From IMG/VR virus record IMGVR_UViG_2606217103_000006: 46,471 bases of DNA, one strand, 5' to 3'. A program made the translations under genes and the position numbers. This document shows positions 43,131 through 43,841 of this stretch, in pieces. This DNA comes from a virus (taxonomy: Duplodnaviria > Heunggongvirae > Uroviricota > Caudoviricetes). Each line of letters opens with the position of its first letter. The first letter of the stretch is position 1. The notes under the pieces were generated by a model that did no database searches, had not been told where the DNA came from, and saw only the letters and a program-made list of their open reading frames with translations.

Positions 43131-43176
43131 ATATTAGGCTTAGCCTAATGAAATTGTCAATAGGCTATGCCTAATA
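43131..43176. promoter_or_regulatory. OR-like operator region: palindromes ATTAGGC-N3-GCCTAAT (43133-43149, 43159-43175) overlapping pR-like promoter (-35 TTGACA 43155-43160, -10 TAATAT 43131-43136, minus strand)
   Basis: Seen directly; perfect 7-bp half-sites. Confidence 0.65.
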
Positions 43177-43227
43177 CATCGAGAGTAGGGATTGCCTAAC
43201 GCGATGCGCATAGGAGACTATTAAGCA

Positions 43228-43704
43228 ATGCTTAGTGGTAAAGACTTAGGCCGAGCGATAGAGCAGGCCATTAACAAAAAAATTGCATCAGGAGCCGTCA
43301 AATCAAAGGCGGAAATCGCACGTCATTTCAAAGTCCAACCACCATCAATCCATGACTGGATTAAGAAAGGTTCGATAAGTAAAGACAAACTTCCAGAACT
43401 ATGGCGTTTCTTTTCTGATGTGGTTGGTCCAGAGCATTGGGGGCTTAACGAATACCCCATACCAACCCCATCCACTTCAGATACAAAAAGTGAACTTTTA
43501 GACATAAACAGCCTTTATCAAGCCGCCTCTGATGAAAAAAGAGCAATTGTGGCTTTCATCTTATCTGGAAATGCTACGGAGCCTAGTTGGGTTGATCATG
43601 ACGTTCGCGCCTACATTGCCGCAATGGAAATGAAGGTAGCTAACTATCTGAAAAATCAAGAATCAAAACGGAAAAGCCAGAACATCACCAAGACAGGAAC
43701 TTAA
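43228..43704 (+). CDS. racR: prophage repressor (RacR-like, cI analogue)
   Basis: 158 aa; N-terminal HTH; divergent from cro-like gene; RBS AGGAGA. Confidence 0.75.
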   Translation: MLSGKDLGRAIEQAINKKIASGAVKSKAEIARHFKVQPPSIHDWIKKGSISKDKLPELWRFFSDVVGPEHWGLNEYPIPTPSTSDTKSELLDINSLYQAASDEKRAIVAFILSGNATEPSWVDHDVRAYIAAMEMKVANYLKNQESKRKSQNITKTGT

Positions 43705-43792
43705 ACTTATATGGTCCGACGGGAAATTCCTAGTTCCCGTTAGTTAACTCCTACTACCTCTCCCACAAACCATCACCTATTAGGTTGCGCCC

Positions 43793-43841
43793 AAATTATT
43801 AGGCATAGCCTATTGACAAGTAATTAGGCATTTCCTATAGT
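43793..43841 (+). promoter_or_regulatory. pL-like promoter with operator palindromes (-35 TTGACA 43813-43818, 17-nt spacer, -10 TATAGT 43836-43841)
   Basis: Same ATTAGGC...GCCTA half-sites as OR region, one over the -35 and one in the spacer. Confidence 0.6.

What the first reader, a model, noticed from the sequence alone, without database searches (positions are those of the whole stretch)
43131..43841. Repressor gene flanked on both sides by the same 17-bp operator palindrome, overlapping near-consensus promoters
ATTAGGC-N3-GCCTAAT sites occur twice between the repressor and the cro-like gene, overlapping a minus-strand TTGACA/TAATAT promoter, and twice again downstream of the repressor over a plus-strand TTGACA/TATAGT promoter. 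This is a lambda-like OR/OL layout for a Rac-type repressor and defines this prophage's immunity specificity.
Basis: seen in the sequence. Interest (0 to 1): 0.4.

Follow-up and report, generated by a model that had tools for sequence, protein, structure and literature searches.

The report
Rac-type prophage repressor with two operators
This is the on/off switch of a Rac-like prophage in E. coli: the repressor gene racR sits between two clusters of the same 17-bp binding site, each covering a strong outward-facing promoter, an arrangement like phage lambda's that is half published already and, for the other half, expected.

Summary
ATTAGGC-N3-GCCTAAT (up to 3 mismatches) occurs 9 times in the 46-kb window against 1.65 expected. 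Seven copies lie in 43133-43839: four between the cro-like gene ydaS and racR, three just downstream of racR. On each side two sites cover a near-consensus promoter: TTGACA/18/TAATAT on the minus strand and TTGACA/17/TATAGT on the plus strand.

The repressor is RacR (NCBIfam equivalog, 91% identical to E. coli K-12 RacR).

The ydaS-side operator is already published for K-12 Rac, with EMSA, DNase I footprints, the same consensus and the same promoter.

I found no description of the downstream operator/promoter for RacR. It is present in K-12 Rac. It is also conserved, with unrelated flanks, in Mixta, Morganella, Proteus, a Klebsiella phage, Achromobacter and Burkholderia, sometimes 1-2.4 kb away behind cargo genes, as lambda's OL lies behind rexAB. 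Published RNA-seq shows the downstream same-strand genes rising 40-70-fold when RacR is depleted.

Verdict: a lambda-like OR/OL immunity region, correctly read. It is an ordinary member of a known kind, with one modest new detail, the left operator and possible looping by the RacR octamer.

The parts
42371..42796 (-). ydaT-family gene (CII analogue), second gene of the rightward operon
   Evidence: Pfam YdaT_toxin, E 2.8e-10. Only 31% identical to K-12 YdaT, so a mosaic joint lies between ydaS and ydaT.
42786..42803 (.). Candidate YdaT-box TTGATTTTCATGAATCAT, spanning the ydaT start codon
   Evidence: One mismatch to TTGATT-N6-AATCAA, the consensus given in PMC9986795. Its position over the ydaT start codon matches the footprint described in PMC11879457. 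The count in the window is not above chance, so the support comes from position only.
42780..43103 (-). ydaS / cro-like HTH gene (ATG at 43103, GGAG Shine-Dalgarno sequence 8 nt upstream)
   Evidence: Pfam YdaS_toxin 3.8e-30 and P22_Cro 1e-8. 85% identical to K-12 YdaS. PGAP annotates the same 324-nt CDS in the identical strain CB209.
43131..43160 (-). PR analogue (PydaST): -35 TTGACA 43160-43155, 18-nt spacer, -10 TAATAT 43136-43131
   Evidence: The hexamers and spacing are the same as the primer-extension-mapped, mutagenesis-verified K-12 PydaST (PMC9638921, PMC11879457).
43133..43149 (.). OR1, perfect palindrome ATTAGGC-TTA-GCCTAAT, covering the -10 and spacer of PR
   Evidence: Half-sites are conserved and the spacer is free in 44 unique sequences (entropy 0.04 against 0.92 bits). 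It corresponds to O1 of K-12, which RacR protects at the lowest concentration (PMC9638921).
43159..43175 (.). OR2 AATAGGC-TAT-GCCTAAT, overlapping the -35 of PR by 2 nt
43184..43200 (.). Extra weak site AGTAGGG-ATT-GCCTAAC (3 mismatches), specific to Escherichia-type loci
   Evidence: Other genera have three sites in the intergenic region, Escherichia four. PMC11014345 speaks of four inverted repeats.
43214..43219 (+). GAGACT, at the position of the -10 (GAGAAT) of the leaderless K-12 racR promoter PracR3
   Evidence: Alignment with K-12. The K-12 -10 box is identified in PMC9638921. Here it has one substitution; its activity was not tested.
43220..43236 (.). OR3, ATTAAGC-AAT-GCTTAGT, whose spacer holds the racR start codon
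   Evidence: Invariant in 44 sequences. A site at -8 relative to the ATG is present in every relative examined, including Pseudomonas phages. Described as O3 in PMC9638921.
43228..43704 (+). racR, 158-aa repressor: N-terminal XRE-type HTH, disordered linker (residues 80-90), helical C-terminal domain
   Evidence: NCBIfam equivalog. AlphaFold2 model, pLDDT 81. Fold hits are all Cro/C1-type HTH but weak. No S24 peptidase domain.
43718..43741 (+). Hairpin ACGGGAAA...UUCCCGU after the racR stop codon; weak terminator candidate
   Evidence: The fold is not better than shuffles (z -0.7). The equivalent positions in KpF5 and Burkholderia carry clear hairpin plus T-run terminators.
43779..43795 (.). 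OL3 candidate ATTAGGT-TGC-GCCCAAA; only the left half-site is good
   Evidence: Seen only in Escherichia-type loci.
43798..43814 (.). OL2 ATTAGGC-ATA-GCCTATT, overlapping the -35 of PL by 2 nt
   Evidence: Half-sites invariant in 44 sequences. GCCTATTGAC is conserved across Gamma- and Betaproteobacteria with unrelated flanks.
43813..43841 (+). PL analogue: -35 TTGACA 43813-43818, 17-nt spacer, -10 TATAGT 43836-43841
   Evidence: The same element lies downstream of K-12 racR. The homology with phage Tritos, which has a different immunity region, begins immediately after this -10.
43823..43839 (.). OL1 ATTAGGC-ATT-TCCTATA, covering the spacer and -10 of PL
43848..44017 (+). Untranslated leader of about 170 nt on the leftward transcript, C-rich and G-poor at its 5' end
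   Evidence: Conserved in more than 3,700 E. coli genomes, including prophages without racR, and in phages with other repressors. No Rfam match. The fold is not unusual.
44018..44551 (+). First genes of the leftward operon: DUF1391/ydfA-like (44018-44173), ydfB (44175-44303), ydfC (44333-44551)
   Evidence: Pfam DUF1391. PGAP names in the identical strain.
44894..44945 (+). DicF small RNA within the leftward operon
   Evidence: Rfam RF00039, 76.7 bits against a gathering score of 48.

Best explanation
This is the immunity region of a Rac-type lambdoid prophage.

Dimers of RacR bind 17-bp operators with the half-site ATTAGGC and a free 3-bp centre.

Right-hand cluster (OR): RacR occludes the -10 and -35 of the strong promoter for ydaS (Cro analogue) and ydaT (CII analogue). 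Through the weaker sites, including the one over its own start codon, it autoregulates racR.

Second cluster (OL): it lies 75-135 bp past the racR stop codon. Two sites built on the same plan (O2 over the -35, O1 over the -10) occlude a near-consensus promoter. That promoter fires away from racR into the early-left operon: ydfABC, DicF, dicB, exonuclease, xis, int.

Loss of RacR therefore opens both arms at once.

What is shown and what is inferred:
- Shown in K-12: RacR binding and repression at OR, and derepression of the leftward genes when RacR is depleted.
- Shown here: the presence, statistical significance and deep conservation of both clusters.
- Inferred: RacR binding at OL, the transcription start at about 43848, and any cooperation between OL and OR.
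For: - Motif enrichment and clustering.
- Both promoters found by the consensus scan, with operators placed identically on each.
- RacR identity.
- K-12 Rac carries the same OL, with TTGACA/17/TATAGT, upstream of ydaG.
- Eleven of 13 diverse genome loci have both clusters, as do Klebsiella phage KpF5 and an S24-fusion locus. In each, the downstream pair is spaced 25 bp and fused to TTGAC, while the flanks are unrelated.
- In 44 unique Escherichia-type sequences, operator and promoter positions are three times less variable than other non-coding positions (entropy 0.073 against 0.226 bits, Mann-Whitney p = 6.6e-6). The N3 centres vary freely.
- Homology with phage Tritos, which has another repressor, starts right after the -10. 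This marks the edge of the immunity cassette.
- Literature on OR: EMSA, ChIP and DNase I footprints of RacR, the consensus (T/A)TAGGC-n3-GCCTA(T/A), and mapped PydaST (PMC5700373, PMC9638921).
- Literature on the leftward genes: ydaG, ydaF, kilR, ydaE and racC rise 40-70-fold while racR mRNA falls (PMC6765115, PMC11014345, bioRxiv 10.64898/2026.09.06.749655). Read-through from racR cannot explain this; an independent RacR-repressed promoter can.
Against: - No binding or promoter assay exists for the downstream cluster. The published footprints and EMSAs used only the racR-ydaS intergenic DNA.
- OL1 here has a poor right half-site (TCCTATA), and OL3 is only half a site.
- Two relatives (Klebsiella sp. 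R390 and a Nitrosomonas MAG) have OR but no detectable OL within 5 kb.
- Silencing of kilR in K-12 has been attributed to a Rho-dependent terminator in racR rather than to an operator (PMC4150792).
- The hairpin after racR is not a convincing terminator, so some read-through into OL/PL is possible.
Confidence: 0.85

Rival explanations
1. The downstream sites serve mainly as an anchor for long-range looping and racR autoregulation. Silencing of the leftward genes would then be done chiefly by Rho-dependent termination in the C-rich leader and in racR, not by promoter occlusion.
For: - RacR is an octamer by size-exclusion chromatography (PMC11014345).
- The Rho-dependent terminator trac, together with kilR lethality in rho mutants, is documented in PMC4150792.
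- The leader starts with a C-rich, G-poor tract that repeats a 20-nt stretch found inside racR (family D6).
Against: - OL1 and OL2 sit exactly on the -10 and -35, with the same plan as at the repressed PR.
- That placement is conserved in every genus examined.
- The 40-70-fold derepression on RacR depletion, with Rho intact, needs a RacR-sensitive promoter (PMC6765115).
- The two mechanisms are not exclusive.
Confidence: 0.1
2. The palindromes are primarily the operators of the Cro-like protein YdaS, or are shared equally with it, so they do not define RacR specificity alone.
For: - In lambda and in CP-933P, Cro/YdaS and the repressor protect overlapping DNA (PMC8630535).
- K-12 YdaS autorepresses and is said to compete with RacR (PMC9638921, PMC11014345).
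- The YdaS HTH is conserved between the window and K-12.
Against: - RacR alone footprints these repeats in K-12, and a 49-bp fragment with one repeat gives one RacR complex (PMC5700373, PMC9638921).
- The half-site follows the RacR N-terminal domain across loci whose neighbouring genes differ.
- Sharing of sites with YdaS would complement the main explanation, not replace it.
Confidence: 0.3
3. The downstream cluster is a non-functional relic of a duplication or recombination of the PR/OR segment.
For: A perfect 23-bp identity between the O2 plus -35 blocks of the two promoters could reflect recent copying.
Against: - The same two-site-plus-promoter block lies downstream of the repressor in Enterobacterales, Burkholderiales and a free-living Klebsiella phage, with unrelated flanks and variable distance.
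- Its half-sites are invariant in 44 E. coli variants while the neighbouring bases drift.
Confidence: 0.03

Closest known systems
[quoted passage not shown]
   Same: - Repressor 91% identical and YdaS 85% identical.
- Same PydaST hexamers and spacing.
- Same four intergenic sites, including the one over the ATG.
- Same downstream TTGACA/17/TATAGT with two to three sites.
   Different: - YdaT is only 31% identical.
- The leftward operon here is of the Qin type (ydfABC, DicF, dicB) instead of ydaG, ydaF, kilS, kilR.
- This prophage sits beside ompW and looks complete, with int, xis and structural genes.
- OR1 is a perfect palindrome here, against one mismatch in K-12.
- The published work on Rac describes only the intergenic operators.
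Phage lambda immunity region (OL/PL, rexBA, cI, PRM/OR/PR, cro, cII)
   Same: - Gene order and orientation.
- Multiple 17-bp dyad operators on both sides of the repressor, each covering a strong early promoter.
- A site that autoregulates the repressor promoter, and a leaderless repressor mRNA (K-12 data, PMC9638921).
- A cargo slot between the repressor and OL in some relatives (KpF5, Burkholderia).
- An octameric repressor (PMC11014345).
   Different: - No sequence similarity to CI beyond the HTH fold.
- No S24 autocleavage domain in RacR.
- OR-OL distance of about 0.65 kb instead of 2.3 kb.
- Adjacent sites 25-26 bp apart, against 23-24 bp in lambda.
- One operator spans the start codon.
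- YdaS reportedly does not repress racR (PMC9638921).
PaaR2 / YdaS / YdaT switch of the cryptic prophage CP-933P (E. coli O157:H7)
   Same: The same YdaS/YdaT partners. OR and an experimentally tested PL933P with OL1-3 on the far side of the repressor operon. An octameric repressor (PMC8630535).
   Different: A different repressor family and a different operator sequence (18-bp repeats with consensus GTTTAGTAA). The repressor there is co-transcribed with a toxin-antitoxin pair.
DicA / DicC / dicBp of the cryptic prophage Qin
   Same: The leftward operon (ydfA, ydfB, ydfC, DicF, dicB, ydfD) and its leader are homologous to those in the window. In Qin they are likewise repressed from operators at a PL-like promoter just downstream of the repressor gene (PMC10448788).
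   Different: The repressor and operators are unrelated. The window has the RacR cassette in place of dicA/dicC.

Membership tests
RacR repressor family (NCBIfam NF049929, equivalog) | Whole-protein score above the curated cut-off | tested here: met
   246.3 bits against a cut-off of 200, E 1.2e-73. 91% identity to K-12 RacR.
RacR repressor family | Cognate operator (T/A)TAGGC-n3-GCCTA(T/A) in the racR-ydaS intergenic region, including a site over the racR ATG | tested here: met
   Four sites at 43133, 43159, 43184 and 43220. The consensus and layout are as in PMC9638921.
RacR repressor family | The protein binds these sites and represses PydaST | not testable with these tools
   Shown for the K-12 protein (PMC5700373, PMC9638921). 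Inferred here from 91% identity and a nearly identical N-terminal domain.
Lambdoid immunity region with OR and OL | Repressor divergent from a cro-like gene across a multi-site operator that covers the cro promoter | tested here: met
Lambdoid immunity region with OR and OL | A second cluster of the same operator on the far side of the repressor, covering an early promoter that points away from it | tested here: met
   Sites at 43779, 43798 and 43823 over TTGACA/17/TATAGT. Conserved in 11 of 13 diverse loci, in phage KpF5 and in an S24-fusion locus.
Lambdoid immunity region with OR and OL | The cassette is bounded by mosaic joints, that is, exchangeable as a unit between phages | tested here: met
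   Homology with phage Tritos (other repressor) begins right after the PL -10. Identity to K-12 drops from 85% in YdaS to 31% in YdaT.
Lambdoid immunity region with OR and OL | Repressor occupancy of OL, and OL-OR cooperation by looping | not testable with these tools
   The only relevant data are that the RacR octamer is reported (PMC11014345) and that the OR-OL centres lie 639-690 bp apart.
Lambda CI / LexA-type (S24 peptidase) repressors | C-terminal S24 autocleavage domain with catalytic Ser and Lys | tested here: not met
   No Pfam hit at E <= 0.01. The model shows a three-helix C-terminal domain. Relatives with the same N-terminal domain do carry PF00717 (P0101, P0102, P0114; Achromobacter L015 with GDSMEP).
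XRE / Cro-C1-type helix-turn-helix DNA-binding domain | Five-helix N-terminal domain with HTH, similar to solved Cro/C1 domains | tested here: inconclusive
   The model has helices at 4-21, 27-33, 38-47, 52-61 and 68-71. All top Foldseek hits are Cro/C1-type domains (HipB, ClgR, C.BclI, lambda cI 1lli, phage repressor 5d4z) at rmsd 2-3.6 A over 60-78 residues, but with E >= 0.1. The PDB sequence search gives E 0.27 and Pfam has no hit. PMC11014345 reports the same similarity.

The most novel reading that the evidence does not exclude
The RacR octamer does not sit on four adjacent intergenic repeats, as has been proposed. Instead it bridges OR1-OR2 and OL1-OL2 into a compact loop of about 0.65 kb that encloses racR, as lambda CI does over 2.3 kb.

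In addition, the N-terminal domain and ATTAGGC operator pair would be an unusually conserved immunity specificity. It is reused from Enterobacterales to Burkholderiales with interchangeable C-terminal domains: the RacR type, which has no S24 autocleavage domain, or an S24 peptidase of the LexA type.
Probability: 0.4. Interest if true: 0.45.

Novelty: new member of a known kind. Interest (0 to 1): 0.25.

Why it matters
Practical consequences:
- It fixes the boundaries and logic of the immunity cassette of a widespread E. coli prophage type. racR-type DNA covering at least 80% of the query is present in 1,085 of 5,426 complete genomes.
- It predicts homo-immunity with K-12 Rac.
- It gives a simple explanation for why depleting RacR switches on kilR, recET or dicB/DicF together with ydaST.

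Scientific consequences:
- It points to an untested element, OL/PL of Rac. That element would change how the reported RacR octamer and the Rho-dependent silencing of kilR are interpreted.
- The concept itself (a repressor flanked by two operators) is textbook. It has already been shown for the sister systems CP-933P and Qin.

Tried and rejected
- Rfam scan of 42300-46471: only DicF and a sub-threshold STnc100 match. Nothing in the operators or the PL leader.
- Folding of the racR 3' hairpin and of the PL leader: not better than shuffles. I therefore do not claim a terminator or a structured leader RNA.
- PDB sequence search with a RacR profile: no significant relative, best HTH hit E 0.27.
- Foldseek against the PDB: only weak (E >= 0.1) though consistent Cro/C1 hits.
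- Pfam: no family for RacR.
- YdaT-box search: one well-placed hit, but the window-wide count is at chance.
- Literature searches for a described Rac OL/PL (RacR with ydaG, kilR, sbcA, SELEX, ChIP-seq, or the ATTAGGC string) found none.
- Conter et al. 1996 (PMC178304), the paper most likely to mention it, is not held.
- The two extra 3-mismatch hits at 26053 and 39214 are isolated and at the chance level, so I rejected them as operators.

Full report
**1. What is in the sequence**

Window 43080-43900 holds these elements, left to right:
- the start of a minus-strand cro-like gene (ATG 43103)
- a 124-bp intergenic region
- a plus-strand 158-codon gene (43228-43704)
- a 300-bp non-coding stretch before the next plus-strand genes

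A scan for ATTAGGC-N3-GCCTAAT with up to three mismatches finds nine hits in 46.5 kb. Dinucleotide-preserving shuffles give 1.65 +/- 1.32, and none of 100 shuffles reaches nine. Seven of the nine lie between 43133 and 43839.

| Site | Coordinates | Mismatches |
|---|---|---|
| OR1 | 43133-43149 | 0 |
| OR2 | 43159-43175 | 1 |
| extra OR site | 43184-43200 | 3 |
| OR3 (spans the racR ATG) | 43220-43236 | 3 |
| OL3 | 43779-43795 | 3 |
| OL2 | 43798-43814 | 1 |
| OL1 | 43823-43839 | 3 |

At up to one mismatch there are three hits where base composition predicts 0.007.

The promoter scan returns exactly two sites in 42500-44500.
- Minus strand: TTGACA/18/TAATAT, 43160-43131.
- Plus strand: TTGACA/17/TATAGT, 43813-43841.

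Read in their own directions, the two promoters are built alike. One operator ends in the first two bases of the -35. A second operator fills the spacer and supplies the -10. A 23-bp block (O2 plus the -35) is identical in both.

The only correction is that each side has more than two sites.

**2. What the genes are**

- The 158-aa protein is RacR. It scores 246 bits against the NCBIfam equivalog NF049929 (cut-off 200) and is 91% identical to K-12 RacR.
- Pfam has no model for it.
- An AlphaFold2 model (pLDDT 81) shows a five-helix N-terminal domain, a disordered linker (residues 80-90) and a three-helix C-terminal domain.
- All the best PDB fold matches are Cro/C1-type HTH domains, including the lambda cI N-terminal domain and restriction-modification controller proteins. 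None is statistically strong.
- The divergent gene is YdaS/Cro-like and 85% identical to K-12 YdaS.
- The next gene is a YdaT (CII analogue), only 31% identical to the K-12 protein.
- The window is 100% identical to E. coli CB209, where this is a lambdoid prophage next to ompW. Downstream of racR lie a DUF1391 gene, ydfB, ydfC, dicB, ydfD, an exonuclease, xis and int.
- Rfam places DicF at 44894-44945.

**3. What is already known**

For K-12 Rac, the ydaS-side half of this finding is experimental knowledge:
- Three palindromic repeats in the intergenic region, three RacR-DNA complexes in EMSA, and ChIP enrichment (PMC5700373).
- DNase I footprints, the half-site ATTAGGC, the consensus (T/A)TAGGC-n3-GCCTA(T/A), operators O1-O3 with O3 over the ATG, a primer-extension-mapped PydaST with TTGACA/18/TAATAT, and a leaderless racR promoter (PMC9638921).
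- RacR elutes as an octamer. The authors read this as four dimers on four intergenic repeats (PMC11014345).

None of these papers mentions sites downstream of racR. Their DNA substrates were the intergenic region only. Further searches found no description of a Rac OL/PL. One old paper that might contain it could not be read.

The two-operator logic has been shown for sister systems:
- PL933P with OL1-3 for PaaR2 in CP-933P (PMC8630535).
- dicBp for DicA in Qin (PMC10448788).

**4. Evidence that the downstream cluster is a real operator and promoter**

(a) K-12 Rac has it too, upstream of ydaG: ATTAGGCATAGCCTATTGACAATCAATTAGGCATTACCTATAGT.

(b) Eleven of 13 diverse loci from species-representative genomes have two or three sites upstream of the repressor and a pair downstream. 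So do the free-living Klebsiella phage KpF5 and a locus encoding an S24-fused relative.
- The pair is spaced 25 bp, with O2 fused to TTGAC and O1 running into the -10.
- The hosts include Mixta, Morganella, Proteus, an uncultured Pseudomonadota MAG, Achromobacter and Burkholderia.
- The flanking DNA is unrelated.

(c) In KpF5, Burkholderia and Achromobacter the pair lies 1-2.4 kb away, behind cargo genes (DUF450, an ankyrin-repeat protein). In KpF5 and Burkholderia a clear intrinsic terminator precedes it. This is the position of OL behind rexAB in lambda.

(d) Among 44 unique Escherichia-type sequences, operator and promoter positions have a mean entropy of 0.073 bits, against 0.226 for other non-coding positions (p = 6.6e-6). 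The 3-bp centres vary freely, up to 0.92 bits at OR1. This is the signature of a dimeric HTH site.

(e) Phage Tritos has a different repressor and different operators. It shares the leader and the ydfABC-DicF-dicB operon with the window, and the homology starts immediately after the -10. The immunity cassette therefore ends exactly at this promoter. Its other edge lies between ydaS and ydaT.

(f) Published transcriptomes show ydaG, ydaF, kilR, ydaE and racC rising 40-70-fold when RacR is lowered, either by the C protein or by CRISPRi on racR itself. These genes lie on the same strand downstream of racR, and racR mRNA falls at the same time. Read-through cannot explain this. An independent RacR-repressed promoter can; that step is my inference.

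**5. Mechanism**

Most likely (confidence about 0.85), RacR dimers occupy O1 and O2 on both promoters and exclude RNA polymerase. The weaker sites, including the one across the start codon, autoregulate racR. Loss of RacR opens the rightward arm (ydaS, ydaT, replication genes) and the leftward arm (ydfABC, DicF, dicB, recombination genes, xis, int) together.

- Shown: binding and repression at OR, in K-12 only.
- Inferred: everything at OL.

The centres of OR1/OR2 and OL1/OL2 are 639-690 bp apart. With an octameric repressor, a lambda-like loop is plausible but untested.

RacR has no S24 domain, so induction is presumably not by RecA-stimulated autocleavage. Relatives with 70-86% identical N-terminal domains fused to S24 peptidases exist, and at least one of them uses the same operators.

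**6. Rivals**

- Control of the leftward genes chiefly by Rho, through the C-rich leader and the trac terminator (PMC4150792), is compatible with the main explanation and probably additive to it.
- Sharing of the sites with YdaS is likely, by analogy with other systems, and does not change the picture.
- A functionless duplication is excluded by the conservation data.

**7. Counter-evidence and limits**

- OL1 has a poor right half-site here, and OL3 is only half a site.
- Two relatives lack an OL within 5 kb. One of them also has a decayed PR -35 and looks like a remnant.
- The racR 3' hairpin is not a convincing terminator.
- No assay has been done on OL.

**8. Verdict**

It is an ordinary lambdoid immunity region of the Rac type. 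The OR half is already in the literature. As far as I could search, the OL/PL half is unreported for RacR, but it is what the lambda paradigm and the CP-933P and Qin precedents predict.

Modest extra value lies in three points:
- the deep conservation of the operator and N-terminal-domain pair across two proteobacterial classes, with swapped C-terminal domains
- the exact cassette boundaries
- the testable idea that the RacR octamer bridges OR and OL

Interest: 0.25.

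Noticed in passing
window 43848-44017; L098 2190-2370; L002 4460-4620 (minus strand): The roughly 170-nt untranslated leader behind the leftward promoter is conserved in more than 3,700 E. coli genomes and in several temperate phages, whatever repressor precedes it. Its 5' end is C-rich and G-poor, like a Rho loading site. There is no Rfam match and no unusual fold. Its function is unknown.
   Followed up: partly
window 43456-43475 and 43845-43864: A 20-nt direct repeat (CCCATACCAACCCCATCCAC against CCCATACCAACCCATCCCAC, 85%). One copy encodes the RacR linker; the other is the first bases of the leftward transcript. A Rho-dependent terminator, trac, has been mapped inside K-12 racR (PMC4150792), so both copies could be Rho loading sites. 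This was not tested.
   Followed up: no
window 42786-42803 and 42823-42828: TTGATTTTCATGAATCAT spans the ydaT start codon and matches the published YdaT box (TTGATT-N6-AATCAA) with one mismatch. A plus-strand TATGAT lies 20 bp further on, pointing toward racR. Together they look like the PRE-type promoter that YdaT activates in K-12 and CP-933P.
   Followed up: partly
window 44894-44945: A DicF small RNA (Rfam, 76.7 bits) lies inside the leftward operon, followed by dicB. In this prophage the cell-division inhibitors of the Qin type would therefore be under RacR-type control rather than DicA control.
   Followed up: partly
L015 5001-6089; L099 3001-3708; proteins P0101, P0102, P0114: The RacR N-terminal DNA-binding domain (70-86% identical) also occurs fused to an S24 LexA-like peptidase domain. 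These loci keep the same ATTAGGC operators on both sides. The same immunity specificity is thus paired with a different C-terminal domain of the LexA autocleavage type.
   Followed up: partly
L004 3149-4303 (Klebsiella phage KpF5); L017 4971-6762 (Burkholderia): Cargo genes sit between the repressor and the left operator, ahead of a terminator: a DUF450 protein in KpF5, and an ankyrin-repeat protein plus two small proteins in Burkholderia. This is the slot that rexAB occupies in lambda, so they may be lysogen-expressed defence or host-interaction genes.
   Followed up: no
L100 2935-3009; L101 2993-3009 and 6047-6090 (Pseudomonas phages VW-6S and D14H): Repressors with only about 53% identity in the N-terminal domain keep the operator across their own start codon (ATTAGGCAATGCTTACC). 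Other sites have drifted to TAAGGC-ATT-ACCTTA. D14H also has an OL-like pair 3 kb downstream.
   Followed up: partly
window 43220-43236: The start-codon operator is symmetric for a variant half-site (TAAGC instead of TAGGC on both arms). It is invariant in 44 E. coli variants. Its right arm is fixed by codons 2-3 (Leu-Ser), so the N-terminus of RacR and this operator constrain each other. It is also the reported off-target site of the restriction-modification controller C.Csp231I (PMC9638921).
   Followed up: partly
L012 4930-5010 (Klebsiella sp. R390); L014 (Nitrosomonas MAG): These two racR-like loci keep the intergenic sites but have no left operator within 5 kb. In L012 the -35 of the ydaS-side promoter is also lost. 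They may be decayed remnants in which the repressor survives alone.
   Followed up: partly
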